Source: an uncultured bacterium
GTDB taxonomy: Bacteria > Edwardsbacteria > AC1 > EtOH8
Assembly: GCA_937863685.1 (NCBI GenBank)
Contig: CALMGM010000010.1
Span: forward strand, 84,158 to 148,157
Length of the DNA: 64,000 bases
Direction of reading: 5' to 3'
Shown here: piece by piece, positions 13,948-62,290 of the stretch
How the letters are laid out: each line of letters begins with the position of its first letter
Position numbering within the stretch: position 1 is the stretch's first letter
Program-made: the position numbers and the translations under genes
The notes under the pieces: generated by a model
Seen by the model: only the letters and a program-made list of their open reading frames with translations
Database searches by the model: none
What the model was told of the DNA's origin: nothing

Positions 13948-14210
13948 TCATTGCGAGAAGACATCTGTGCCTGACGGATGAGGCAATCCAGGTTTTTCCC
14001 GGATCGCTTCGTTTGTGTGATACCGGGCCCTACTCGCGATGACGAGAACGCCCGGTCATTGCGATCATTCTGCAGTGTCAGGCGAATGAAGCAATCCACC
14101 GGGTTTCCTGGATCGCTTCGTTCGTGCAATATTAAGGTCATGCTCGCGATGACGAGAACGCCCGGTCATTGCGAGTTGACATCATTGCCGAACAGATGAA
14201 GCAATCCAAC
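13948..14210. repeat. tandem repeat, ~108-110-bp unit x ~2.5 (unit starts 13948, 14056, 14166), each carrying GTCATTGCGAG…GA(A)TGAAGCAATCC
   Basis: Exact 31-mer TCGCGATGACGAGAACGCCCGGTCATTGCGA occurs twice (14033-14063, 14150-14180); units align throughout. Same core element occurs again at 61326-61367. Confidence 0.7.
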
Positions 14211-14378
14211 TCATCCCCCCGCCCCCTTCTCTTGGCAAGAGAAGGGGAGAAAGGGGTTGAGTCAGTCTAAGCCCGAATGGGAAACGTTCGGGCTAATATT
14301 TTAGTAAAATATGCTTGATTTTACATGGTATTGAGGTGTATAGTTGGTACTGTAAACACTAAATATATCGGTGATAAA

Positions 14379-15047
14379 ATGAATCTGAAATATTTTGCCT
14401 TATTCATTTTGCTTGTCGCCCATGCCGCCCTGGCCGGACCCAGGCCCACCGTGGCCATAATGGACCTGCAATGCCAGGGTCTTTCTGCTGCCGATGCTGT
14501 CATAGTAACCGACCGCCTCCTTTCGGAGCTGGGCAAGGCCGGGACTTACGACATTGTGGAGCGCACCAGGCGCGATGAGATACTAAAGGAACAGGGCTTT
14601 ACCATGACCGGGGCCTGCGACCAGACCAGCTGTCTGATCGAGGCCGGCAAGATGCTTTCGGCCTCCAAAATGGTGGGCGGTAGCATTGGCAAGTTTGGAC
14701 AGGCCTGGGTGGTGAATTTACGGCTGGTGGACGTTACCACCGGAAAGATAGACAAGACGGTGGATCGGGATTTCACCGGCCCGCAGGAGAGCCTGCTGCT
14801 TTTAATGCGGGAGGCGGCCGGGGAACTGGTGGACAAGGATATTTTATTGCCCGAAGAAAAGGCCCTGCTGGAAACGGGGCGCAAGGATATTGAAAAGATA
14901 GAAACGGAATATGCCCAGTCTCAGCAACAAACCAAACTTTTGAACAGGAAAAGATCTCCGAGGCCGAGGCCAGACGATTGCAAGAAGAGTCATACAAGGC
15001 CAAACTCTACGCCCAAAAGCAGGAGGAGGAACGCAGGATCAGGCTGA
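14379..15047 (+). CDS. secreted CsgG/LpoB-like domain protein, N-terminal part (frame 0; likely disrupted by a frameshift near 14938-14941)
   Basis: Signal peptide MNLKYFALFILLVAHAALA, then a domain aligning with paralogs at 47719 and 48619 (AIMDLQ…VERTRRDEILKEQGF…TGACDQTSCLIEAGKML…GGSIGKFG…LRLVDVTTGKI); the C-terminal tail of this ORF (KRSPRPRPDD…) looks non-coding. Confidence 0.5.
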   Translation: MNLKYFALFILLVAHAALAGPRPTVAIMDLQCQGLSAADAVIVTDRLLSELGKAGTYDIVERTRRDEILKEQGFTMTGACDQTSCLIEAGKMLSASKMVGGSIGKFGQAWVVNLRLVDVTTGKIDKTVDRDFTGPQESLLLLMREAAGELVDKDILLPEEKALLETGRKDIEKIETEYAQSQQQTKLLNRKRSPRPRPDDCKKSHTRPNSTPKSRRRNAGSG

Positions 15048-15553
15048 AAGCTTTGGAAAAAGAGAATGAACAGCAGAAGAAGGAATATCGGAAACGACTT
15101 AAGGCTCAGGCCAGGCAGGACGAGAAGGAACGCCATGATAGGCTGATGGCTTTAGGGTATATAAAGCCATACCGGGGCACTGCTAAATTGTTTATGTGGT
15201 CGGGCGTTGGTCTGACCGTTGGAGCGGGGGTATTGAAAGTTCTGGCCGAGAATGAATACGACAAATACCAAAGCGCGGAACTTACAGCCGATGCGGTGGA
15301 GGCACGGGACAATACCGAGAAATTGGACAAATATACCTATATTACGGCAGGCACGGCCGGGGCCTGTTTGCTGACCTCTGGGATCTTATATTTGGTGGGG
15401 AATAAAAAGCCGATGAAGCTATCAAAAAATGGTCCGGAATTGGAGCTATATTTTACTGACCGCCCCCTAACCCCCTCCCATGAGGAGGGGGAACAAAAAG
15501 CCCCTTCCCTTGCGGGGAAGGGGTTGGGGTTAGGTCTAGCCTGGAGGTTTTAG
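14978..15553 (+). CDS. C-terminal part of the same protein in frame 2: coiled-coil plus two TM helices (open from 14894)
   Basis: Frame 2 reads …FEQEKISEAEARRLQEESYKAKLYAQKQEEERRIRLKALEKENEQQKK… (E/K/R-rich coiled coil) continuing the frame-0 coiled coil; last ~25 codons run through a GC-rich hairpin repeat. Confidence 0.45.
   Translation: MQEESYKAKLYAQKQEEERRIRLKALEKENEQQKKEYRKRLKAQARQDEKERHDRLMALGYIKPYRGTAKLFMWSGVGLTVGAGVLKVLAENEYDKYQSAELTADAVEARDNTEKLDKYTYITAGTAGACLLTSGILYLVGNKKPMKLSKNGPELELYFTDRPLTPSHEEGEQKAPSLAGKGLGLGLAWRF
15465..15533. repeat. nested GC-rich hairpin repeat (CCTAACCCC[CCCCCTCC-loop-GGAGGGGG][CCCCTTCCC-loop-GGGAAGGGG]GGGGTTAGG)
   Basis: Three mutually nested inverted repeats read directly; a related element lies at 21872-21945 and simpler relatives at 5781-5810, 6941-6962, 14230-14275 and 34037-34064. 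Confidence 0.6.
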
Positions 15554-15555
15554 AC

Positions 15556-16857
15556 ATGAAAAGATATTTACTTTTAGTTTTATGTACCCTGCTTGCTATT
15601 TTGGGTTGCAGCAGGAAGTGGGATAACCCGGTGGAATCTGCGGTGCCTTTACCGGGGGTGCCTGGTTTAATTAGCCCTGCCAATAATGCATGGATATGGA
15701 ATGCACAAAATACGATTACGTTTACCTGGTCTAAAGTAAGCGGCGCAACAAAATATAAATTACTGCTAAGTAATTATTCAGCCGTATCTGATTCATTTGT
15801 TGCAATGGAAATAGCGGATACTTTTTATAATTGGACAGATACAAACAAACTTGGGAAAATGTATTGGCAGGTAAAGGCGTGGAACCCAATAAATGAATGG
15901 AAAATTAGCAGCATCTACACTTTCGAAAAAGGGCCATATATTTTAGCCAGAAACGGTGATTTATCGGTTGGTATGGGTTATGTGCAATTTATATATGAAA
16001 ATTACTTCTATATAGGCTCAAGTTTTAGTTTTAGGATTTATGATATCTCTGATTATAATAAACCAATTTATATTAAGACTGTAGATTATCCACGAGTAAT
16101 AGGTGACTGTACGGTTCTATCTGATAATTTATTATATATGACATCACGTTTTGATGATGGTGATGGTTTAAGTATCGCTACCTTATCAGATCCTTTAAAT
16201 CCAACTGAAATAGGTCATATAACCACAACTTCGTATGTCGATATTTCTGGTAGAAATTATGGACTTGCAATTAAAGATACAATAGCTTACGTTGTTAACT
16301 ATTGGAAAGGTTTGTTTCTTGTTAATATAAAAAACCCAACGAACCCAATTAATATAACCTCTTGTTATTTTGACCGTCCTTCCTTTAAGGTTACCGTGTT
16401 TGGTAACTACGCTTATGTGGCTAGAGAAGATTCAGGCCTTATTGTTGTTGATGTTACTAATCCCTCAATACCTTATATCGTTAATAGAATTATTTATCCA
16501 GAATCATATATAAATAATGTCTATGCGTACAATGATATTTTATATGCAACCGGCCATAAATTTTCATTAGCAAATCCAACAAACCCAATACTTTTAAATG
16601 AAGGGCCTTATTTTGGTTTTCATAAAATAACGGTTCTCAATACTATTATATATGGTGGGAAATATATCTTTAGTAATAGTGACCTTTCTGTTTTAGGCAA
16701 ATGCGATAAAATAAATAATGACACATTATTATATATTCAGGGATATGGCATTAAAAACAATAATATGTTTTGTGGGATTAATTGCTATAAACCAGTAAAC
16801 GGTGGGATTCAAGACTTGGGTGCACGCGGTATTGTTGTTTTTAAATTGGCGCCATAG
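15556..16857 (+). CDS. lipoprotein with LVIVD beta-propeller repeats (AT-rich gene)
   Basis: Lipobox LAILGCS; repeated …GLIVVDVTNPS…, …GLFLVNIKNPTNPI…, …TLSDPLNPTEIGHI… segments characteristic of LVIVD repeats; markedly lower GC and AT-rich codons. Confidence 0.55.
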   Translation: MKRYLLLVLCTLLAILGCSRKWDNPVESAVPLPGVPGLISPANNAWIWNAQNTITFTWSKVSGATKYKLLLSNYSAVSDSFVAMEIADTFYNWTDTNKLGKMYWQVKAWNPINEWKISSIYTFEKGPYILARNGDLSVGMGYVQFIYENYFYIGSSFSFRIYDISDYNKPIYIKTVDYPRVIGDCTVLSDNLLYMTSRFDDGDGLSIATLSDPLNPTEIGHITTTSYVDISGRNYGLAIKDTIAYVVNYWKGLFLVNIKNPTNPINITSCYFDRPSFKVTVFGNYAYVAREDSGLIVVDVTNPSIPYIVNRIIYPESYINNVYAYNDILYATGHKFSLANPTNPILLNEGPYFGFHKITVLNTIIYGGKYIFSNSDLSVLGKCDKINNDTLLYIQGYGIKNNNMFCGINCYKPVNGGIQDLGARGIVVFKLAP

Positions 16858-16882
16858 TATAAAGTTGTTTAAAGGTAATGAT

Positions 16883-17326
16883 ATGAGATATACTATAATT
16901 ATTGCTGCTTACGGTGCTGTTGTCTCTTCAATAGCATTGCTTTGGAATATTCTGCGTGATGCAAAAGACAAACCAAAAATTATATTAGACGTAGAAATTG
17001 GTATTATTGTGCCCGTACAAAATAAAAAGAAATATATATTTGTTACAATAACTAATGTTGGTCGTCGCCCGGTTATAGTCAAAGAATTAAAGGGTGTAAA
17101 AACAAAACTAATAAATTTGCCTTATGTTTTAATAGCCACTAAACAACTTCCAAAAATATTAAACGAAGGTGAATATATACAAGAAACCATACATGATCTA
17201 AATTGGTTAGATAATATTGAAAAAATATATATAAAAGACTCAACGGGTAGAGAGTGGTATCTTCCACGCAATAAGATGAAATTATTAAAGAAACAATATA
17301 CAGAGTATAAAAAGCAAATTTGGTAA
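16883..17326 (+). CDS. hypothetical small membrane-anchored protein (AT-rich)
   Basis: ATG with AAAGGTAATGAT upstream; N-terminal TM helix (IIIAAYGAVVSSIALLW); no recognisable domain. Confidence 0.35.
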   Translation: MRYTIIIAAYGAVVSSIALLWNILRDAKDKPKIILDVEIGIIVPVQNKKKYIFVTITNVGRRPVIVKELKGVKTKLINLPYVLIATKQLPKILNEGEYIQETIHDLNWLDNIEKIYIKDSTGREWYLPRNKMKLLKKQYTEYKKQIW

Positions 17327-18858: not shown

Positions 18859-19091
18859 AATTGGACGCAGATACACGCAGATTGAACGGATTCCTTTTAA
18901 AATGAATAGATTATATCAGCGTTGATCGGTATCCGATTCGGTTGCGTACAATGAAAAGGCTGAGCAGGAAAATTCGTTAAAATATAGTTTGATTTTAGAA
19001 ATTACATCAACTATAATTAGCATAGCTAATAGGGTCATTATTTAATTAGATAGTGACCTTTATTGTTTCATGATTATAAGGGAGAAAGGGA

Positions 19092-20459
19092 ATGAAAAAT
19101 ATCAAAGTAGTAGTGTTTTTTATCATAATTGCATCAGCAATTACATCATATTCGGCTGCACCTAGCATCGAATGGTCCCGGCAGTACAATATTTCAGAAA
19201 CATCACAGCATGATGCTTATGCCTGCGCAATAGATACTTTGGGTAATATCTATGTGGTAGGCAAGGTACAAGAACAGGTTGGCACTAATGATAATATTTT
19301 AGTGTTGAAATATAACTCAAGCGGAGATACCCTTTGGCATTGGTACTATGATAGCGGCAATTATGATGCAGCAAATGATTGCGTTATCAATAATATGCAA
19401 CAACTATATGTTGCTGGATCAATAAATAATAAGGCTGCTTTATTAAAATTCGATCAAAATGGAGATACGCTTTGGACCAGAGTTATCAATGATCCTAAAT
19501 ATAATGGTAAAAGTTGCGCTTTGGACGAAGCGAACAATATTTATCTTGCAGGTGATTACGATAACGGAACAACACTAATTCCGTTTATTAAAAAATTCTC
19601 GCCCCAGGGTGATTCTTTATGGCTTAAAACAATTTTATTAGAAACATATACTTTTGATTATTATATGACCGCAGATTGCGTTCTGGATAGCAATATGAAC
19701 ATTTATTTTACGGGATCTACAAGCACTCACGGTAGTTTTTTGGCAAAGTGCAACAATTTAGGGGATACCTTATGGACCCGGTTTCGCAATATTGCCGATA
19801 CTGTTAATGAGGCTGGCCAAGAATGTCATATTGATTCAGAAGGTAATATTTATGTATCGGGTGAATATTTTTATCCAGGTTCACCATCTCCTCCATATTT
19901 GGCAATGAAATACGATTCAGAAGGTAATATAATTTGGAATAATATGCAGTCTAATATGAATATAAGCATGGTGTTAGGACATAAAAGTGCATTAGATGAC
20001 CAGGGAAATTTATACGTTACCGGTCAGTCTGCGATGATCAAATACAACAGCCAGGGTGATACTGTTTGGTCGTTTTGGATCGGTTCTGGTGCATCAGGAT
20101 ATGATTGCGAATTGGCCCCTTCTGGGGAGCTTGTGCTCTGTGGGAAAATAAACGATAATGGAATTGACTATTTTCTTATCAATAAATATCAGGCAGAAAC
20201 CGGGGTTGCGGGTGATAAGCCAAAAGAATTATCAGTGGTTGACCAAAGCTCATACCTTGCATACCCAAATCCCTTCAAATCATATGCCAAGGTAAAGGGC
20301 TTGGAAGAACAGGAATTATTTGTTTACAATATATTGGGGCAGAAAGTCCAGGCATGCAAGGGATCCAAAATTGGGGAAAAATTGGCGCCGGGGATATATT
20401 TTGCCATAAAGGCAAAACTGCCGCAAATAAAGCCAGTCAAGCTGATCAAGATAAAATAA
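19092..20459 (+). CDS. secreted beta-propeller-repeat protein with type-IX-secretion-like C-terminal sorting domain (AT-rich gene)
   Basis: Signal peptide; repeated GNIYV.G…KY…GD.LW units (SBBP/PQQ-like); C-terminus …LAYPNPFKSYAKVKG…VYNILGQKV…LAPGIYF…KLIKIK matches the Por/T9SS CTD pattern. Confidence 0.55.
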   Translation: MKNIKVVVFFIIIASAITSYSAAPSIEWSRQYNISETSQHDAYACAIDTLGNIYVVGKVQEQVGTNDNILVLKYNSSGDTLWHWYYDSGNYDAANDCVINNMQQLYVAGSINNKAALLKFDQNGDTLWTRVINDPKYNGKSCALDEANNIYLAGDYDNGTTLIPFIKKFSPQGDSLWLKTILLETYTFDYYMTADCVLDSNMNIYFTGSTSTHGSFLAKCNNLGDTLWTRFRNIADTVNEAGQECHIDSEGNIYVSGEYFYPGSPSPPYLAMKYDSEGNIIWNNMQSNMNISMVLGHKSALDDQGNLYVTGQSAMIKYNSQGDTVWSFWIGSGASGYDCELAPSGELVLCGKINDNGIDYFLINKYQAETGVAGDKPKELSVVDQSSYLAYPNPFKSYAKVKGLEEQELFVYNILGQKVQACKGSKIGEKLAPGIYFAIKAKLPQIKPVKLIKIK

Positions 20460-20475
20460 TTCAAAGGATATAATA

Positions 20476-21465
20476 GTGAAGAGTGCGATCGGATTTATAA
20501 TAACAATCCTTTTCTTTAATATTGCTTTAGCCAGTGACGTGCGCATAAAAGGATTGGGGGGCAGCACCAACATCGAAGATTTAGAAAACGATATCTATGA
20601 TAATCCGGCATTAATGTCAGGCATGCAATATGATTTTGCGGCTTTGGGTTTCAGCAACAGTTTAACCATCAACGAGACTTTCTATGTTCTTGACAGCACA
20701 TACCAGTATTATAAAACTTCCAGAAATTCACCAACGATAGATATCAAGGCTGGTTTGAATGACAGAAAGACAACGAATATTGCAATAAGTTATACCGAAA
20801 ATATCAACATTAATGATTCCTCAAGAATCAACTATGGAATCATCAATCTTGGATTGGCACAAAAGGCAGGCAGGTTCGGCTACGGTTTCGGTTATGACCG
20901 ATCATTCAATGTTAATAATAGTTGGTATGGTGTCAAAGCCGGGATATCAAACATGGACAGCCTGAATAACCTGGCGTTTCTCGTAAATTATTATAAAAGA
21001 AATTATGGGGAGACCTATCTTATAGAATTGAAATGGCGTTCCATTCGCAGCAAAAACAGGACCCTTTGTTTAAAAGGCGGGTTGAGCCAGCCTTTAGGAC
21101 ATCGCGGGAATTATTTCCGTCTGGGGGTTGGTATGGTCTATTATCTAAGGCTATTAAGAACCAGAATAATATTTGATATTTACGAAGGTATTGATCTGGA
21201 TATGAGCGAATATATTTCGCTTATTGGTGACGGGCATTTGGCATTAGAGACATATATATTATCCCCATGGACGGTACGTTGTGGAACGGATGGACCAGTG
21301 CTGGATCTTGGCACAACAATTAAAATCAACGAAAAAATAAAAATCGAATATTCATTTGAAACGGAAAACCACACAACTTATAAACGGGTAGATACTCTTT
21401 ACCTTAATAATAGAACCGAATCAAAAACCCAATGCCATTACCTAAAAGCAATATACGCATTCTAA
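20476..21465 (+). CDS. putative outer-membrane beta-barrel protein (AT-rich gene)
   Basis: Signal peptide (…NIALA), amphipathic strand-like segments, C-terminal …KAIYAF aromatic terminus typical of OMPs; adjacent to the CTD cargo gene. Confidence 0.4.
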   Translation: MKSAIGFIITILFFNIALASDVRIKGLGGSTNIEDLENDIYDNPALMSGMQYDFAALGFSNSLTINETFYVLDSTYQYYKTSRNSPTIDIKAGLNDRKTTNIAISYTENININDSSRINYGIINLGLAQKAGRFGYGFGYDRSFNVNNSWYGVKAGISNMDSLNNLAFLVNYYKRNYGETYLIELKWRSIRSKNRTLCLKGGLSQPLGHRGNYFRLGVGMVYYLRLLRTRIIFDIYEGIDLDMSEYISLIGDGHLALETYILSPWTVRCGTDGPVLDLGTTIKINEKIKIEYSFETENHTTYKRVDTLYLNNRTESKTQCHYLKAIYAF

Positions 21466-21701
21466 AAAGATATTCTAATACTGGATCGATAATATCAACG
21501 TTCATCAGCGTCCTATGGAAAGTTTTGACCGGCAAGAGCAGTACTTTACAACGGATCTGATTTATCGTATAATCTTATAATGATTGTTGCCAAGACCCCC
21601 CATCAAAAAGGGGCCTTGGCCTTTCGGCGTTTCGGGTTTGAAGGTTTTTCAAGTCTTCTGAGTATAGACTGGGTAATAATTGTTATCACTAAGCCCCCGT
21701 G

Positions 21702-21738
21702 TTACTTTCTTGTGACCAAGAAAGTAACCAAAGAAGTC
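21702..21738. repeat. conserved hairpin element TTACTTTCTTGTGACCAAGAAAGTAACCAAAGAAGTC (copy 1)
   Basis: 11-bp stem TTACTTTCTTG/CAAGAAAGTAA around GTGACC; near-identical copy at 61422-61463. Confidence 0.6.
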
Positions 21739-21871
21739 TTTACCGCCCAGTTCCGCGGATGGTCAGGCCTACGCCCCGGCACTCATTGAACCAGAACAAG
21801 CAGGATGTTCATGACACAATGATTGCTTTTTCGGGGCTGATGCATAGCCGCTACACTGAAGGCGGGGTCCG

Positions 21872-21945
21872 ACCTAACCCCTGCCCCTTCCCCGCAGGGG
21901 AAGGGAAGATTGCTTCCCCCTCCTTGCGGGAGGGGGAACGAGGGG
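21872..21945. repeat. nested GC-rich hairpin repeat (relative of 15465-15533)
   Basis: CCTAACCCC…CCCCTTCCCCgcaGGGGAAGGG…CCCCCTCCttgcgGGAGGGGG read directly; produces a spurious ORF (21699-22061). Confidence 0.55.
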
Positions 21946-22077
21946 GCGGTCGGGTCGCGTCAGCGACAGTTCTTCCTTCGCCGGTCTTATATATCACAAC
22001 TCAGGACATGCTTTGTAGCTTTCTCTTCAAAGAGAAAGCGGAGAAAATAAGACAAAAATAATTTAACAAAACAGAAT

Positions 22078-25000
22078 ATGATCTGGGATAAATTTTCAAA
22101 AGCGGTCTACCAAAGCCCGTCATTCGACAAGCTTTTTAAGCTGTATGACTCTGATCAAAAGTTGTTCGGCCTGACCGGGCCCTGCGAGGCCGGCAAGTCG
22201 GTGGTGGTCTCCGGGCTGCACGCCAAAAAGCCCCGGACCCTGCTGTGGATCACCCCCGGCGACGAGGAGGCCGAGCGGCAGCGGGACAACCTCTCCGTCC
22301 TGCTGGGGCCGGATAGCATCAAATGGTGGGCGGCCTGGGACATCCTGCCGGGCGATGATAAGGAGCCGGACGTGGAGCTGGTGGGCAGCCGGATGGAATG
22401 CCTGCAGGCCCTATCGTCCAAACAGCCGGCGGTGATCCTGGCCTCGGCCAGAAGCGTCATCCAGCGCACCATCAACCCGGCCGAATTCGGCCAGCGGAGG
22501 ATCGATCTGGCCATAGGCATGAAACTGGACCGGGAGGAACTGCTGGCCAGACTGATAGATTCCGGCTATGAGCGCCAGCCGGTGGTATCGGGCATCGGGG
22601 ACATCAGCCTGCGGGGCTCCATCATCGACATTGCCAGCTTCAGCGACGACGGTCCGGTGCGCTTGGAGCTTGATGACGACATCCTGGTCTCGCTGCGCCG
22701 CTTCAGTCTGGTGGATCAGCGCTCCACCGCCCGGCTGGAAATGGTCACCATCCTGCCCCGGATGGAGACATCCGAAAGAACGGCATTGTTGCTGGAGCAC
22801 CTGCCGGAGAATTGTCTGGTGATCATGGACGAGCCGGGCGAGATCTCCTCCGAATGGGCCGAGCTGTCCGAGGAATATCAGGATATGGTCAATGATAACA
22901 GATTCGCCTCCGGTGAGCAGTTTCGGCGGGGGCTGGCAAATTTCAGCCGCCTGCTGGTGACCTCCGGGGCCGGCTTCGGGATGTCCGAGGAGAGATCGCC
23001 CGAGGAGATCGTCCGTGTCGGCATCCAGCCGGTGGAGCCGTTCATGTCCAACCTGGATCTGCTGGCTGCCAGGATCGAAAAACTGCACCAGGACAACTTT
23101 CAGATATTTCTGCTGTGCGACAACCCGGGACAGCAGGAGCGCCTGAATGAGATCATCGACGGCCAAAGCAGGGCGCGGGTCAGCCAGATCACCGTAGCCG
23201 GGCTGCACAGCGGCTTCATTTTCCCCGAGGCCTATTTATGCGCCGTCACCGAGCGGGAGATCTTTGCCAGGGAGAAACGGAGAAGGGCCAGGCGGTTCTT
23301 CAAGGGGGGCGGGGCCATCCGCAGTCTGGAGGCCCTCAAGAAGGGCGATTTCATGGTGCACGTGGACCACGGCATCTGCCAGTACCAGGGCCTGAGCAAT
23401 CTTAACATCGAAGGACGGCAGACCGAATGCCTGCTGCTGATCTTCCGGGACGGCGACAAGCTGTACCTGCCGGTGGACCAGCTGAAGCGGGTCCAGAAAT
23501 ACTCGGCCGAGGAGGGTCAGCATCCCGGCCTATCCAAGCTGGGCTCGGCGGCCTGGGAGGAGACCAAGGCCCGGGCCAAGCGCTCGGCCCGGGACATGGC
23601 CAAGGAGCTGCTGGCCCTGTATGCGGTGCGCAAATCCCAGCCGGGGATAAGATTCTCGCCCGACACCCTGTGGCAGAAGGAACTGGAGGCTTCCTTCGTC
23701 TACCAGGAGACAGCCGACCAGTTAAAGGCCATCGAGGAGATCAAGGCCGACATGGAAAGCGACAAGCCCATGGACCGCCTGCTGTGCGGCGACGTGGGCT
23801 ACGGCAAGACCGAGGTGGCCATCCGGGCGGCCTTCAAGGCGGTGATGGACGGCCGCCAGGCGGCGGTGCTGGTGCCCACCACGGTGCTGGCCGAACAGCA
23901 CTACCAGACCTTCAGGGAGCGGCTGGCCGATTATCCCGTCAAGGTGGAGATGCTGTCCCGTTTCCGCAAGCACGGCGACCAGAAGATCGTCATCAAGGCC
24001 ATAGCCGCCGGCGAGGTGGATATCGTCATCGGCACCCACCGCCTGATCCAGAAGGACGTCGAATTCAAGAAGCTGGGCCTGCTGGTGGTGGACGAGGAGC
24101 AGCGCTTCGGGGTGGCCCACAAGGAGAAGCTCAAACAATTGTTCAAAGCGGTGGACGTGCTGACCATGACCGCCACCCCCATTCCCCGCACCCTGCACAT
24201 GTCACTACTGGGGGCCCGGGACATCTCCAACATCGAGACCCCGCCCAAGGACCGCCTGGCGGTGATCACCGAAGTATCATTATGGAACGCCGCCCGGATC
24301 AAAGAGGCCATCCTGCGGGAGGTGGACCGCGGCGGGCAGGTGTTCTTTCTGCACAACCGGGTGCAGTCCATCGCCGCCATGACCGCCTACATCGCCAGCC
24401 TGGTGCCGGGAACCGAGGTGACCTTCGCCCACGGGCAGATGGAGGAGCGGGAGCTGGAGCGGGTGATGCTGGCCTTCACCGCCAAGCGCTACGACGTGCT
24501 GGTGGCCACCACCATCATCGAATCGGGCCTGGACATGCCCAACGTCAACACCATCATCATCAACCGGGCCGACAAGTTCGGGCTGGCCCAGCTGTACCAG
24601 TTGCGGGGGCGGGTGGGGCGCTCCAACAAGCGGGCCTTCGCCCACCTGATCATCCCCAAGGGGGGGCGGATCAACGAGACGGCCCGCAAGCGGCTGAGGG
24701 TGATCGAGGAGCTCTCCGAGCTGGGCTCCGGGTTCCAGCTGGCCCTGCGGGACCTGGAGATCAGGGGGGCTGGCAATCTTCTGGGGCGGGAGCAGCACGG
24801 CAACATGATCGCGGTGGGATTCGAACTCTACTGCCAGCTGCTGGATGAGGCGGTCCGGGAGCTGAAAGGGCTGCCGGCCGTGCCCCAGATCGACGTCAAG
24901 CTGGAGATCCCCGGGAGGGCCCTGATCCCGCAGGATTATGTGGAGGATCCCAACGAGAGGATCAACCTCTACCGCCAGCTGAACAAGGCCGGCGACATGG

Positions 25001-48618: not shown

Positions 48619-49476
48619 ATGGAAAAAGCATTTTTGATATTGTTTTTTTCAATTATCGCTTTGTCTAGTTATGCACAGTCCGAAAGGAAAACGGCTGTGG
48701 CCGTAATGGATTTGCGCGGCTCGGGAATTTCAGCGATAGATGCTAAGTTTTTAACCGACAGGCTTATGATAGAGCTACAACGCACAGATGTTTTTGACGT
48801 ATTGGAACGCGACAAGATTGGAGAGATACTCAAAGAACAAGGTTTTCAGCAAACTGGTGCTTGTGACCAGACCTCTTGTTTGGTTGAGGCAGGGAGATTG
48901 TTACCGGTTGAAAAAATGATAGGTGGTAGCGTAGGCAAATTCGGTGAAACTTTTTCTGTTCAAGTTCGTCTAATAGATTTAAAAACTGCTAAAGTTGAAA
49001 AAACAGCTACTAAAGATTTCAGCCAAAAAATGGATTATTTGTTGACAAATGGTATGCAATTAATTGCTTACGACTTGGCAGAAAAAAACAACAATAAAAA
49101 GTATGTTTTGGTACATGAAAAAATAATACCAGATTCAATCGCTGCAAAATATAAATCAAGTTCATTAGCTGCTATTTCATCTTTTATAGTCCCAGGATCC
49201 GGACAATATTATATTGGTAAATATAAGATGGGTTCTTTATTTTTAATTTCTGAGGTGGGTTTGGGATTGACTGCAATGGCGTTGCGCGCTGAAGAAAACT
49301 GGACTTTTGAGTATATGGCGGTTATAAGTTGTTGTGTAATGCATATTGTGAACACCTCAACCGCTGTGTATTATGTAAAAAAACATAACGAAAATATTAA
49401 AAACAAATATAATCTGGGGATCAAATTTCGACCTAAGGCTAATGGCATCTCCACAGCGCTAAGCATGGAATTTTAA
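48619..49476 (+). CDS. secreted CsgG/LpoB-like domain protein, paralog 3 (AT-rich copy)
   Basis: Same domain as 47719 (…VLERDKIGEILKEQGFQQTGACDQTSCLVEAGRLLPVEKMIGGSVGKFG…) and identical C-terminal GISTALSMEF, but clearly lower GC and AT-rich codons. Confidence 0.5.
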   Translation: MEKAFLILFFSIIALSSYAQSERKTAVAVMDLRGSGISAIDAKFLTDRLMIELQRTDVFDVLERDKIGEILKEQGFQQTGACDQTSCLVEAGRLLPVEKMIGGSVGKFGETFSVQVRLIDLKTAKVEKTATKDFSQKMDYLLTNGMQLIAYDLAEKNNNKKYVLVHEKIIPDSIAAKYKSSSLAAISSFIVPGSGQYYIGKYKMGSLFLISEVGLGLTAMALRAEENWTFEYMAVISCCVMHIVNTSTAVYYVKKHNENIKNKYNLGIKFRPKANGISTALSMEF

Positions 49477-61463: not shown

Positions 61464-61725
61464 CTGGGGGCGGTTGAGCTAACGGTTATTAATGGTAGAA
61501 TGCAAACAAGTTTTAAGCCCGACCGTTTTTTTAATATTTTATTCATTGCCCAATGCCGCCAACCGCCCCCATACCAGATCTATTATTTCGTATCGAACGA
61601 AATAATAGACAAGGGTTTATTTACCCAGTGTTTTGGCCATAGCGTAGGAGTGGGTTCTAAACCTGTTGCCCCTCCTTGGTAAGATTGGGTATTATTTCAA
61701 TAGAATTATAAAACAAAGGAGCAAA

Positions 61726-61938
61726 ATGAGTAAAGTATTAAGAATATTATTTATTGGAATAATGTCAATATGTATAATATCAGCAGTCTATATGTTAATA
61801 GCGGTGTTCGCAACTGGGAAATGGTCTATATACATGATGTACATTTATTTTATCAGTGATGTTTTATCAATAATATCAATCTTAATTTATATAATATCAA
61901 ACGAATATAAAAGCAAGCAAAATAAGATTATGGATTAA
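61726..61938 (+). CDS. hypothetical small two-TM membrane protein (very AT-rich; ORF opens at 61666)
   Basis: ACAAAGGAG RBS before ATG; 70 aa with two hydrophobic helices (ILFIGIMSICIISAVYMLIAVFA; YFISDVLSIISILIYII); lies next to two tRNA genes. Confidence 0.35.
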   Translation: MSKVLRILFIGIMSICIISAVYMLIAVFATGKWSIYMMYIYFISDVLSIISILIYIISNEYKSKQNKIMD

Positions 61939-62065: not shown

Positions 62066-62142
62066 TGGTAGCGGCTCAGGGACTTGAACCCCGGACACGC
62101 GGATTATGATTCCGCTGCTCTAACCAGCTGAGCTAAGCCGCC
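62066..62142 (-). tRNA. tRNA with CAT anticodon (elongator Met, or Ile2/lysidine type)
   Basis: RC reads GGCGGCTTAGCTCAGCTGGTTAGAGCAGCGGAATCATAATCCGCG…GGTTCAAGTCC…GCCGCTACCA; 77 nt, cloverleaf-consistent. Confidence 0.8.
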
Positions 62143-62213
62143 ATAATTGGGACATTTAAAAACCCCAGTAAAGTTTCGTGGGCCTGCAAACTCATTACTA
62201 GGGCCTGTATTTA

Positions 62214-62290
62214 TGGTAGCGGGGGGAGGATTTGAACCTCCGACCTTTGGGTTATGGGCCCAACGAGCTACCAGGCTGCTCCACCCCGCG
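62214..62290 (-). tRNA. initiator tRNA-fMet (CAT)
   Basis: RC reads CGCGGGGTGGAGCAGCCTGGTAGCTCGTTGGGCCCATAACCCAAAGGTCGGAGGTTCAAATCCTCCCCCCGCTACCA: three G-C pairs in the anticodon stem and C1xA72-type end typical of initiators. Confidence 0.85.

What the first reader, a model, noticed from the sequence alone, without database searches (positions are those of the whole stretch)
19092..21465. AT-rich island 2: beta-propeller protein with a T9SS-type C-terminal sorting domain followed by an outer-membrane barrel
The 455-aa protein has a signal peptide, SBBP/PQQ-like repeats and a C-terminus (…LAYPNPFKSYAKVKG…VYNILGQKV…LAPGIYF…KLIKIK) fitting the Por/T9SS CTD pattern. The downstream 329-aa protein has OMP hallmarks (signal peptide, terminal …YAF). 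Together they resemble cargo-plus-dedicated-barrel pairs such as SprB/SprF-type arrangements. Both genes are AT-rich in an otherwise GC-rich genome. The finding implies a T9SS-like export route in this organism and recent import of a substrate gene.
Basis: partly seen in the sequence, partly recalled or inferred. Interest (0 to 1): 0.55.

Follow-up and report, generated by a model that had tools for sequence, protein, structure and literature searches.

The report
Secreted propeller protein beside variable barrel
Two AT-rich genes in a Candidatus Edwardsbacteria genome encode a secreted seven-bladed propeller protein with a shortened type IX secretion tail and a plugged outer-membrane barrel; they are neighbours in a fast-changing cell-surface gene region, not a matched cargo-and-channel pair, and both are ordinary kinds of protein.

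Summary
Both ORFs exist exactly as described and are strongly AT-rich (GC3 0.34 and 0.40, against 0.87-0.90 in the flanking genes). The 455-aa protein has a signal peptide, a 7-bladed SBBP propeller, a disordered linker and a short type-A-like T9SS C-terminal domain (CTD). The CTD scores below the curated cut-offs, but it aligns with canonical CTDs and keeps their key motifs. The 329-aa protein is an outer-membrane barrel of about 16 strands with a FadL-type N-terminal plug motif. Its best structural match is Bdellovibrio PopA; FadL and PorV rank lower. It gives no PorP/SprF hit and is not a PorV/PorQ family member. The family is tiny and was seen only in Edwardsbacteria-like genomes. The "cargo plus dedicated barrel" idea is not supported. 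The closest relatives carry a 93%-identical barrel with no propeller gene. Other relatives keep MatE-barrel adjacency, or a paralogue after gyrA, without cargo. The two lineages that have the propeller carry barrels only 31% identical. "Recent import" is only partly right: the AT-richness is old and syntenic, but gene content here varies between close relatives. A strain related to the window organism encodes PorU-like and PorV/PorQ-family genes, so a T9SS-like route is plausible. The translocon and motor genes were not tested. Low novelty.

The parts
18989..19017 (+). sigma-70-like promoter candidate (TTGATT-17-TATAAT) upstream of the propeller gene
   Evidence: Consensus scan, 10 of 12 matches. 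It lies inside the 18915-19061 block, which is conserved at 85.7% with L001/L002, where the same block directly precedes the barrel gene. Function not shown.
19031..19060 (+). conserved hairpin followed by a T-rich run, in the leader region. It could be the MatE terminator or a leader attenuator.
   Evidence: Terminator-like site with 13 pairs. L001 has a perfect 11-bp stem at the homologous position.
19092..20459 (+). gene for a 455-aa secreted SBBP-repeat beta-propeller protein with a C-terminal sorting domain
   Evidence: ORF. Pfam SBBP 49.1 bits. 2825 homologues, most of the best ones carrying PF18962. AF2 model with pLDDT 84.1.
19092..19157 (+). Sec signal peptide (residues 1-22, MKNIKVVVFFIIIASAITSYSA; no lipobox cysteine)
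   Evidence: Read from the sequence. Modelled as an N-terminal helix, residues 3-16. No signal-peptide predictor was available.
19167..20189 (+). seven-bladed beta-propeller (residues 26-366, 28 strands). The central blades are the most variable part.
   Evidence: AF2 secondary structure. Best Foldseek match is the CylK propeller at E 1e-19. Nucleotide identity to L005 drops to 53-71% across 19459-19958, against 81-93% at the ends.
20199..20252 (+). disordered linker (residues 370-387, ...ETGVAGDKPKELSVVDQ...)
   Evidence: pLDDT below 50. The TGVAG motif recurs before the CTDs of other proteins.
20253..20456 (+). shortened type-A-like T9SS C-terminal domain (residues 388-455). It keeps PNPF, YN..G..V, GIYF and a terminal KLIKIK.
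   Evidence: TIGR04183 19.1 bits (cut-off 23) and PF18962 17.5 bits (cut-off 27). Alignment A2 shows two deletions of 4 and 10 aa relative to canonical CTDs. It is 64 aa from PNP to the end, against a modal 78. An independent HMM gives E 1e-5. The domain is 92-94% identical among the three orthologues.
19062..20509 (+). segment present here and in the L005-L008 lineage but absent from the closest relatives L001/L002. It holds the propeller gene, the intergenic spacer and the first 34 nt of the barrel gene.
   Evidence: blastn mosaic. Window 18915-19061 matches L001 9827-9971, and window 20510-21540 matches L001 10035-11064 at 95%. Window 18966-20609 matches L005 8498-10137 at 78%. Junction alignment.
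20476..21465 (+). gene for a 329-aa outer-membrane beta-barrel from a small lineage-restricted family
20476..20532 (+). signal peptide of the barrel (residues 1-19, MKSAIGFIITILFFNIALA). It is nearly identical to that of the 31%-identical allele P0003 and different from that of the 93%-identical P0001.
   Evidence: Sequences; alignment A1. The recombination breakpoint lies at about 20510.
20533..20634 (+). conserved N-terminal plug-type motif (SDVRxxGxGG...D.E.D...NPA)
   Evidence: Conserved in A1. It is the only region that aligns with the PorV/PorQ and PopA family models. Its resemblance to the FadL hatch NPA motif comes from my own knowledge. Model confidence here is low.
20635..21462 (+). 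barrel body: about 16 antiparallel strands with short loops, ending in the beta-signal ...HYLKAIYAF
   Evidence: DSSP of the AF2 model. The C-terminal motif is conserved in A1.
21589..21951 (.). intergenic repeat element downstream of the barrel. It occupies the place where relatives carry one or two GNAT acetyltransferase genes.
   Evidence: Copies at several intergenic sites in L001, L002, L005 and L007, and weakly at window 15458-15536.

Best explanation
This is a hypervariable cell-surface gene region between the conserved MatE and Mfd genes of a Candidatus Edwardsbacteria genome. It holds two functionally independent envelope genes that happen to be co-transcribed here.

Gene 1 encodes a Sec-exported, seven-bladed SBBP propeller. 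The propeller is most likely a surface-displayed or released binding protein, and its ligand is unknown. Its short type-A-like C-terminal domain would direct it through a T9SS-like pathway: a PorV-family shuttle, then cleavage or attachment by a PorU-like sortase.

Gene 2 encodes a BAM-inserted barrel of about 16 strands with an N-terminal plug, in the FadL/PopA structural class. It is most likely a general, possibly oligomeric PopA-like, outer-membrane protein and not a T9SS part. It is the resident gene at this locus. The propeller gene is a cassette that is present or absent between the shared promoter region and the barrel's signal-peptide codons.

The low GC, the divergent central propeller blades, the allelic replacement of the barrel and the variable GNAT copy number are those of a flexible surface-protein island. 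Recombination and diversifying pressure probably shape it.

Shown: the gene structures, domains and fold class, the mosaic structure, the absence of pairing in relatives, and PorU/PorV-like genes in a related strain. Inferred: actual export by a T9SS, surface location, oligomeric state, and the selective cause.
For: - Domains: SBBP passes its threshold. The model shows a 7-blade propeller, linker and small beta domain.
- CTD: it aligns with canonical CTDs of full-length homologues and is hit by an independent CTD HMM at E 1e-5, the only such hit in the window. It keeps the Lbeta3beta4 glycine (YNILGQKV) and a lysine-rich last strand (KLIKIK). These correspond to the two motifs shown to matter for secretion (PMC11285876). 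Functional CTDs of 58-65 residues exist.
- T9SS parts: L021 is 100% identical to L007 over 4394 nt, so it is the same strain, and L007 carries the orthologous propeller-barrel module. L021 encodes a 1160-aa PorU-like peptidase (NF033707 109.8 bits; TIGR04183 32 bits, which passes) and a PorV/PorQ-family protein (157.5 bits, cut-off 90). The same pair occurs in another Edwardsbacteria MAG. Canonical CTD proteins are common in the related loci.
- Independence: L001-L004 carry the 93%-identical barrel directly after MatE, with no propeller. L012 keeps MatE-barrel adjacency without a propeller. The paralogue P0124 follows gyrA. L009 and L013 have non-CTD genes upstream.
- Variability: the barrel is 31% identical between genomes whose flanking genes are about 89% identical, while the CTD, junction and signal peptide are 85-93% identical. 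All family members are AT-rich.
Against: - The CTD fails both curated thresholds and is 14 residues shorter than the norm, so it may be impaired.
- The translocon (SprA/Sov) and motor/ring genes (GldK/L/M/N) were never looked for. The PorU-like protein scores far below the PorU equivalog cut-off (110 bits vs 420).
- The PorU/PorV-like pair was seen in related strains, not in the window genome itself.
- The 16-nt spacing and the 99%-identical propeller-barrel-GNAT module seen in two genomic contexts leave room for a functional link.
- Diversifying selection was not measured.
Confidence: 0.6

Rival explanations
1. Cargo plus dedicated outer-membrane partner. The barrel would be a lineage-specific shuttle or anchor for the propeller protein. 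It would be analogous either to SprB/SprF and other type-B-CTD/PorP pairs, or to the PorZ (propeller + CTD)/PorQ (PorV-like barrel) pair of the P. gingivalis attachment complex.
For: - The genes are 16 nt apart with no terminator between them.
- The pair recurs in L005-L008, and propeller-barrel-GNAT is 99% identical in two different neighbourhoods.
- Three family members give weak N-terminal hits to the PorV/PorQ family (15-21 bits) and one to PorV2.
Against: - A 93%-identical barrel exists without the propeller gene in L001-L004. MatE-barrel adjacency without cargo occurs in L012, and a paralogue follows gyrA.
- The two propeller-bearing lineages have barrels only 31% identical while their CTDs are 94% identical.
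- There is no PorP/SprF hit at E<=10 in any member.
- hhalign to a genuine Edwardsbacteria PorV/PorQ protein covers only 34 N-terminal columns, at probability 30%.
- The CTD is type-A-like, and type A CTDs use the general PorV shuttle (PMC12618676).
- The model has 16 strands, whereas FadL has two fewer than PopA's 16 (PMC12228718) and PorV is a 14-strand barrel (own knowledge).
Confidence: 0.1
2. The C-terminal domain is a decayed remnant that no longer works as a T9SS signal. The propeller protein would then stay in the periplasm or reach the surface by another route.
For: - It scores below threshold in both curated models.
- Two deletions remove 14 residues, including the 'GxYxVxW' strand.
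- It scores 22 bits against 65-100 bits for canonical CTDs of the same phylum with the same HMM.
- Model confidence in the domain is only 61-81.
Against: - The domain is 92-94% identical among orthologues that are 67-68% identical overall, and its DNA is at the genome-average level while the propeller diverges.
- The PNPF, Gly and terminal Lys-rich strand motifs are intact.
- Similar short forms occur in other lineages and still carry precomputed PF18962 hits (P0022, P0036).
- Experimentally functional CTDs can be 58-65 residues long.
Confidence: 0.15
3. Both genes are a recent horizontal import from an AT-rich donor.
For: - GC3 is 0.34-0.40 against 0.87-0.90 in the flanking genes.
- The propeller gene is missing from the closest relatives.
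- The region is flanked by repeat elements, and its gene content varies.
Against: - The barrel occupies the same MatE-...-Mfd position in lineages as distant as L012 (30% protein identity). It is AT-rich in all of them, as is the paralogue after gyrA.
- The barrel family was found only in Edwardsbacteria-like contigs, 6 clusters among 1.84 billion representatives.
- The ends of the propeller gene are at genome-average identity to L005.
- No integrase or transposase lies in or next to the segment.
Confidence: 0.12
4. The barrel is a FadL-type monomeric channel for hydrophobic molecules and is functionally tied to the adjacent MATE transporter.
For: - Foldseek's best hits are FadL and TodX (E 1.8e-12).
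- It has a conserved N-terminal GxGG...NPA plug-type motif.
- MatE-barrel adjacency is conserved in L001, L012 and, with the propeller in between, in L005 and the window.
Against: - There is no Toluene_X/FadL HMM hit in any member.
- The model has 16 strands, and the protein is about 100 residues shorter than FadL with very short loops.
- MatE and the barrel differ sharply in GC (0.61 vs 0.38) and are separated by a 230-330-nt spacer holding a promoter-like site and a hairpin.
Confidence: 0.15

Closest known systems
SBBP-repeat / 'delta-60 repeat' proteins with a T9SS type A sorting domain (e.g. P0064, annotated 'T9SS type A sorting domain-containing protein' from a candidate division KSB1 bacterium)
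   Same: Same architecture from end to end: signal peptide, SBBP propeller blades, linker, C-terminal PNPF...GxYF...K domain. It is 31% identical over 100% of the query.
   Different: The CTD is 14 residues shorter (64 vs 78 residues from PNP to the end) and falls below the TIGR04183 and PF18962 cut-offs. Close orthologues are known only from Edwardsbacteria-like contigs.
PopA (Bd0427) of Bdellovibrio bacteriovorus, PDB 9gf0, and its 'lipid-trapping' oligomeric OMP superfamily (PMC12228718)
   Different: There is no significant sequence match. The NF053618 PopA model hits only residues 1-47 of P0001 at 16 bits, against a cut-off of 150. Oligomer formation, loop 8 and the flattened inner wall could not be examined. 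Loops in the 329-aa allele are very short.
FadL/TodX family hydrophobic-compound channels
   Different: FadL has 14 strands and about 420 residues with long loops. No Toluene_X Pfam hit in any family member.
PorV/PorQ family (NF033709) T9SS outer-membrane shuttle and anchor barrels
   Different: The window protein gives no hit. The relatives score 15-21 bits against a cut-off of 90. A genuine PorV/PorQ-family protein exists elsewhere in Edwardsbacteria (157 bits) and aligns with this family over only 34 columns.
SprB/SprF and other type-B-CTD cargo / PorP-like shuttle gene pairs of Flavobacterium johnsoniae (PMC12618676, PMC9143113)
   Same: A CTD-bearing surface protein gene immediately followed by an outer-membrane barrel gene.
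   Different: The CTD here is type-A-like, not type B. The barrel has no PorP/SprF similarity, and the pairing is not conserved.

Membership tests
SBBP beta-propeller repeat (PF06739) | Pfam HMM score at or above the gathering cut-off | tested here: met
   49.1 bits against a cut-off of 20.5, E 5.5e-13, 3 stretches. The model shows a 7-blade propeller.
T9SS type A CTD (TIGR04183 / PF18962) | HMM score at or above the curated cut-off | tested here: not met
   TIGR04183 19.1 bits (cut-off 23), E 9.7e-4. PF18962 17.5 bits (cut-off 27), E 5.2e-3.
T9SS type A CTD (TIGR04183 / PF18962) | Homology of the C-terminal ~70-80 residues to accepted CTDs, with the conserved motifs: PNPF, Gly in the beta3-beta4 loop, GxYF, and a Lys-containing last strand | tested here: met
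   Full-length alignment to P0064 runs through the CTD. In A2 the columns P-N-P-F, Y-N..G..V, G.YF and the terminal K are invariant. An independent HMM built without the Edwardsbacteria sequences gives E 1e-5. Motif relevance is taken from PMC11285876.
T9SS type A CTD (TIGR04183 / PF18962) | Seven-strand 3+4 Ig-like beta-sandwich | tested here: inconclusive
   The AF2 model gives 5 strands of three or more residues plus two shorter strand segments in residues 388-455, at pLDDT 61-81. A 10-residue deletion removes the region of one canonical strand.
T9SS type A CTD (TIGR04183 / PF18962) | The host genome encodes the T9SS machinery: SprA/Sov, PorK/L/M/N or GldK/L/M/N, PorV and PorU | tested here: inconclusive
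   A PorU-like peptidase (109.8 bits vs 420, with a passing CTD) and a PorV/PorQ-family protein (157.5 bits vs 90) occur in the related strain L007/L021 and in MAG L014. None lies in the 64-kb window. SprA and GldKLMN were not searched because no query sequence was available.
T9SS type B CTD (TIGR04131) | HMM match to the type B C-terminal domain | tested here: not met
   Not among the NCBIfam hits at E<=1.
PorP/SprF family (PF11751 / TIGR03519) | HMM match | tested here: not met
   No hit for the window protein at E<=1, nor for any of the 8 family members at E<=10.
PorV/PorQ family (NF033709, NF033710, NF033711) | HMM score at or above the cut-off (90 bits for the family model) | tested here: not met
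   The window protein gives no hit. P0003 scores 21.1, P0125 16.8 and P0127 15.4 bits, each over a short terminal stretch only. hhalign to a true Edwardsbacteria member gives probability 30% over 34 columns.
FadL / Toluene_X (PF03349) | HMM match; 14-strand barrel with an N-terminal hatch | tested here: not met
   No Pfam hit in any member. The model has 16 strands. Fold similarity is present, and a hatch-like NPA motif is present.
PopA superfamily (PMC12228718; NF053618) | 16 beta-strands with a tight N-terminal plug | tested here: inconclusive
PopA superfamily (PMC12228718; NF053618) | Radial oligomer built around loop 8, with a flattened inner wall and a hydrophobic central chamber | not testable with these tools
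   Only monomer prediction was available and the model coordinates could not be inspected.
Generic BAM-dependent outer-membrane beta-barrel | Signal peptide, closed antiparallel barrel, and a C-terminal beta-signal ending in an aromatic residue | tested here: met

The most novel reading that the evidence does not exclude
The small Edwardsbacteria barrel family could be a new kind of CTD-cargo partner: a PopA/PorV-like plugged barrel that receives or anchors a propeller protein carrying a minimal type-A CTD. That would be a type-A counterpart of the type-B-CTD/PorP pairing, or a compact PorZ/PorQ-like module, carried on a repeat-flanked propeller-barrel-GNAT cassette that can move between chromosomal sites.
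Probability: 0.08. Interest if true: 0.55.

Novelty: new member of a known kind. Interest (0 to 1): 0.25.

Why it matters
If the main reading holds, little changes. It adds one more SBBP propeller cargo with a compact CTD. It also adds a lineage-restricted plugged barrel, possibly PopA-like, to the envelope inventory of an uncultured candidate phylum, and it shows that PorU/PorV-like genes and canonical CTDs occur there.

The more useful points are practical. The short CTD shows that curated CTD models miss compact variants. The locus is also a clean example of a surface-protein island. Secretion signals stay conserved while the exposed parts, and even the whole barrel, are swapped. This matters when MAG annotations are used to infer surface biology or phage receptors.

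Tried and rejected
- Exact-sequence look-ups of both window proteins found nothing, so the source contig could not be fetched.
The fragment did work in the genome-contig scan.
- The afdb50 fold library was unavailable.
- PDB sequence searches with the barrel profile gave only a chance hit to catechol dioxygenase. The window CTD alone gave only a weak hit to 8glj_D at E 0.23.
- Pfam on all barrel family members gave nothing relevant. Weak hits to TraU, DUF6588 and HbpS were dismissed as noise.
- LipL53 lipoprotein membership was rejected: 81 bits against a cut-off of 400, and no lipobox.
- CylK-like enzymatic function for the propeller was rejected. The similarity covers the propeller fold only, and in CylK the catalytic site needs a second, N-terminal domain (own knowledge) that this 455-aa protein has no room for.
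- I considered that the 470-aa CTD protein of L001 might be a displaced copy of the propeller gene. Only the linker and CTD align.
- I tried to tell whether the propeller was inserted or deleted. The junction shows RBS/start/signal-peptide similarity on both sides but does not settle the direction. L012 as an outgroup favours 'barrel alone' as the ancestral state.
- A literature search for Edwardsbacteria together with type IX secretion found no paper.
Full report
**1. Observation**

They are 16 nt apart. An AAAGGA Shine-Dalgarno-like site precedes the GTG, and no terminator-like site lies between them.

The region is strongly AT-rich. GC is 0.35-0.40 per kb, against 0.58-0.59 on either side. 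Third-codon-position GC is 0.34 and 0.40, against 0.90 for the upstream MatE gene and 0.87 for the downstream mfd gene. Both proteins have conserved homologues, so these are genuine genes.

**2. Organism and setting**

The nearest relative of the 329-aa protein (P0001, 93% identical) is annotated as coming from Candidatus Edwardsbacteria RIFOXYD12_FULL_50_11. The flanking housekeeping genes are about 91% identical in DNA to contigs of that lineage (L001-L004), and about 89% identical to a second lineage (L005-L008).

NCBI files the phylum (Candidatus Edwardsiibacteriota) under candidate phyla. Its affinity with the FCB group is my own recollection and was not tested.

The window encodes BamA, Skp/OmpH, LpxD, LptD and SurA, so the organism has an outer membrane. 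No T9SS core gene was seen in the part of the window that was scanned. The propeller protein is the only window ORF with a CTD-like tail.

**3. The 455-aa protein**

SBBP repeats pass Pfam's cut-off (49.1 bits against 20.5). An AlphaFold2 model built on 52 sequences (pLDDT 84.1) shows four parts:
- an N-terminal helix, which is the signal peptide;
- 28 strands forming a seven-bladed propeller (residues 26-366);
- a disordered linker (residues 370-387);
- a small beta domain (residues 388-455, pLDDT 61-81).

The best structural match is the propeller of CylK. PorZ, a T9SS propeller-plus-CTD protein, appears at rank 8. These are fold-level matches only.

The tail scores below both curated thresholds: TIGR04183 19.1 bits against 23, and PF18962 17.5 against 27. 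By the letter of the membership test it fails. It is nevertheless homologous to type A CTDs:
- Most of the best 120 homologues carry PF18962, and many align over 90-100% of the query.
- The alignment with a KSB1 protein annotated as a T9SS type A sorting-domain protein runs to the last residue.
- PNPF, YN..G..V, G(I/V)YF and the terminal lysine are invariant in the CTD alignment.
- An HMM I built from 50 canonical CTDs, excluding the Edwardsbacteria sequences, hits it at E 1e-5 among 1713 ORF segments.

The low score comes from two deletions of 4 and 10 residues. These make it the shortest CTD in the set: 64 residues from PNP to the end, against a modal 78. Canonical CTDs of other Edwardsbacteria proteins score 65-100 bits with the same HMM.

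Several points favour a working signal:
- The domain is 92-94% identical among orthologues that are only 67-68% identical overall.
- The beta3-beta4 loop glycine and the lysine-containing last strand are the two elements shown experimentally to matter. Both are present, and the protein ends in KLIKIK, close to the Tannerella KLIKK ending.
- Functional CTDs of 58-65 residues are known (PMC11285876).

**4. Is there a T9SS-like route?**

L007 carries the orthologous propeller-barrel module. It also holds the start of a 1160-aa protein with Peptidase_C25 and Por_Secre_tail hits.

Scanning with that fragment recovered L014, an Edwardsbacteria MAG. A later metagenome scan with the L014 PorV/PorQ-family protein recovered L021, which is 100% identical to L007 over 4394 nt and is therefore the same strain.

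Both loci encode the following:
- a PorU-like peptidase (NF033707 95-110 bits, E down to 8.5e-32, well below the equivalog cut-off of 420), with a CTD that passes TIGR04183;
- about 0.9 kb downstream, a 309-aa protein that passes the PorV/PorQ family model (157 bits against 90).

So CTD-bearing proteins, a PorU-like sortase and a PorV-family barrel all exist in this lineage. The translocon (SprA/Sov) and the PorK/L/M/N or GldK/L/M/N genes were not tested, because I had no query sequences for them. No paper mentions Edwardsbacteria together with type IX secretion. T9SS-like systems are reported or suspected in several FCB phyla.

**5. The 329-aa protein**

It has no Pfam or NCBIfam family. Its family is tiny:
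- three hits in a 5.8-billion-sequence search;
- six clusters among 1.84 billion representatives.

All members with enough context lie in Edwardsbacteria-like genomes.

The alignment conserves three elements: an N-terminal SDVRxxGxGG...D.E.D...NPA segment directly after the signal peptide, a GYD motif, and a C-terminal HYLKxIYxF/Y beta-signal.

The AlphaFold2 model (8 sequences, pLDDT 72.4, pTM 0.69) has two short helices followed by 16 strands with short loops.

Structural matches:
- Foldseek puts FadL and TodX first (E 1.8e-12).

PopA is described as a 16-strand barrel with a FadL-like plug that forms lipid-trapping oligomers, and its relatives are widespread in FCB-group phyla (PMC12228718).

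The only sequence-level links are short and sub-threshold:
- PorV/PorQ family: 15-21 bits in three relatives, and PorV2 in one of them.
- PopA family: 16 bits over residues 1-47 of P0001.
- hhalign to the genuine Edwardsbacteria PorV/PorQ protein: 34 N-terminal columns, probability 30%.

No member hits PorP/SprF, PorV or FadL in Pfam.

My reading is that this is a plugged barrel of the FadL/PopA structural class, most like PopA, and not a member of the PorV/PorQ or PorP/SprF families.

**6. Are the two genes a functional pair?**

The comparative evidence says no.
- In L001-L004 the 93%-identical barrel follows MatE directly, with no propeller gene. Window 19062-20509 (the propeller gene, the spacer and the first 34 nt of the barrel gene) is replaced there by 63 nt. 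The upstream block holding the promoter-like site and hairpin is shared, and so is the barrel body at 95%.
- In a much more distant genome (L012, barrel 30% identical), MatE-barrel adjacency and the downstream GNAT...Mfd order are kept, again without a propeller.
- A paralogue sits after gyrA in the same genome as L006.
- Two short contigs have non-CTD genes upstream of the barrel.
- The propeller-bearing lineages (the window and L005-L008) share the propeller gene and the barrel's signal peptide at 78% and 85-93% DNA identity. Their barrel bodies are only 31% identical.

A partner that specifically recognised this CTD would not be expected to be swapped wholesale while the CTD stays fixed. 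It would also not be expected to persist unchanged where the cargo is missing.

The SprB/SprF precedent also concerns type B CTDs, whereas type A CTDs use the general PorV shuttle (PMC12618676).

What remains in favour of a link is the likely co-transcription and a 3.97-kb repeat-flanked propeller-barrel-GNAT module. That module is 99.1% identical between two MAGs in different neighbourhoods. The second placement could be an assembly artefact at the repeats.

**7. AT-richness and 'recent import'**

Every member of the barrel family is AT-rich (GC 0.37-0.43), sitting next to genes of GC 0.57-0.65. This includes the distant syntenic copy and the paralogue after gyrA. The composition is therefore old and tied to the family, and it does not mark a fresh arrival.

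The region is nevertheless clearly fluid:
- The propeller gene is present or absent.
- The barrel has two deeply divergent alleles.
- The GNAT gene occurs in 0, 1 or 2 copies.
- A canonical-CTD gene present in L001 is missing from the window.
- The neighbouring LVIVD propeller gene is only 78.6% identical to L001.
- Within the propeller gene, the central blades are 53-71% identical to L005, while the signal peptide and CTD ends are 81-93% identical.

This is the pattern of a flexible cell-surface island, with conserved export signals and variable exposed parts. I did not measure selection, and the persistent low GC3 is unexplained (note 6).

**8. Verdict**

The cargo is a new member of the well-populated class of SBBP propeller proteins with type A CTDs, carrying an unusually compact CTD that the curated models miss. 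The barrel is a new, lineage-restricted member of the plugged FadL/PopA-type barrels.

The dedicated-barrel and recent-import ideas are not supported. A T9SS-like route is plausible but only partly documented.

Interest is low to modest. The most novel surviving reading is a type-A CTD cargo with its own PopA/PorV-like partner on a mobile cassette. I put it at about 8%.

Noticed in passing
window 21589-21951 (core 21700-21875); also window 15458-15536 (reverse), L005 8111-8481, 11880-12051 and 20386-20526, L001 1192-1367 and 11882-11931: A dispersed intergenic repeat with G/C-rich hairpins (e.g. CCCCTTCCCCGCAGGGGAAGGG), REP- or MITE-like, recurs at many intergenic sites in Edwardsbacteria contigs and borders the variable genes. 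Rfam at gathering thresholds found only tRNAs in the window.
   Followed up: partly
L005 8217-12184 and L007 8217-12185: A 3.97-kb module, [175-nt repeat]-propeller-barrel-GNAT-[175-nt repeat], is 99.1% identical in two MAGs. It lies between MatE and Mfd in one, and inside the xseA-xseB-ispA-DUF212-dxs cluster in the other. This is either repeat-mediated translocation or a chimeric MAG contig.
   Followed up: partly
window 21465-22078; L001 11040-11819; L002 11040-11819 and 12378-13157: The GNAT acetyltransferase gene that follows the barrel in relatives (one or two copies) is absent from the window. About 48 nt plus the repeat element take its place.
   Followed up: partly
window 14325-17326: The neighbouring AT-rich island encodes a CsgG-like lipoprotein (14325-15047), a 191-aa ORF, an LVIVD-repeat propeller (15556-16857, GC 0.34) and a 174-aa ORF (GC 0.30). 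It is only 78.6% identical in DNA to L001, against about 91% for housekeeping genes, and in L002/L004 the last gene is replaced by a DUF2971 gene. A second CsgG-like AT-rich gene lies at 48619-49476.
   Followed up: partly
window 14011-14314 compared with L001 3204-4616: A 470-aa protein with a canonical, threshold-passing T9SS CTD is present in L001/L003 and absent from the window at the homologous position.
   Followed up: partly
window 19031-19060: A hairpin followed by a T-run lies between the promoter-like site and the propeller start codon. It is conserved in L001 as a perfect 11-bp stem, with the window differing only by wobble pairs. It could be the MatE terminator or a leader attenuator.
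   Followed up: no
L010 10001-11119 (GCA_018830185.1): A 372-aa paralogue of the barrel family sits directly after gyrA in the same genome that carries the 359-aa allele. It is also AT-rich (GC 0.37, against 0.59 for gyrA).
   Followed up: partly
window residues 370-376 of the 455-aa protein; L001 3204-4613; P0008, P0017: A 'TGVAG' motif sits in the linker just before the CTD in otherwise unrelated CTD proteins. It may mark the sortase processing region.
   Followed up: no
L014 16401-19733; L021 10044-12032: Downstream of the PorU-like/PorV-family pair lies a subtilisin-like peptidase with a weak CTD-type tail. In L014 an ISNCY-family transposase follows it.
   Followed up: no
window 62066-62290: Two tandem tRNA-Met (CAT) genes lie on the minus strand, next to an AT-rich 90-aa ORF at 61666-61938 (GC 0.26).
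   Followed up: no
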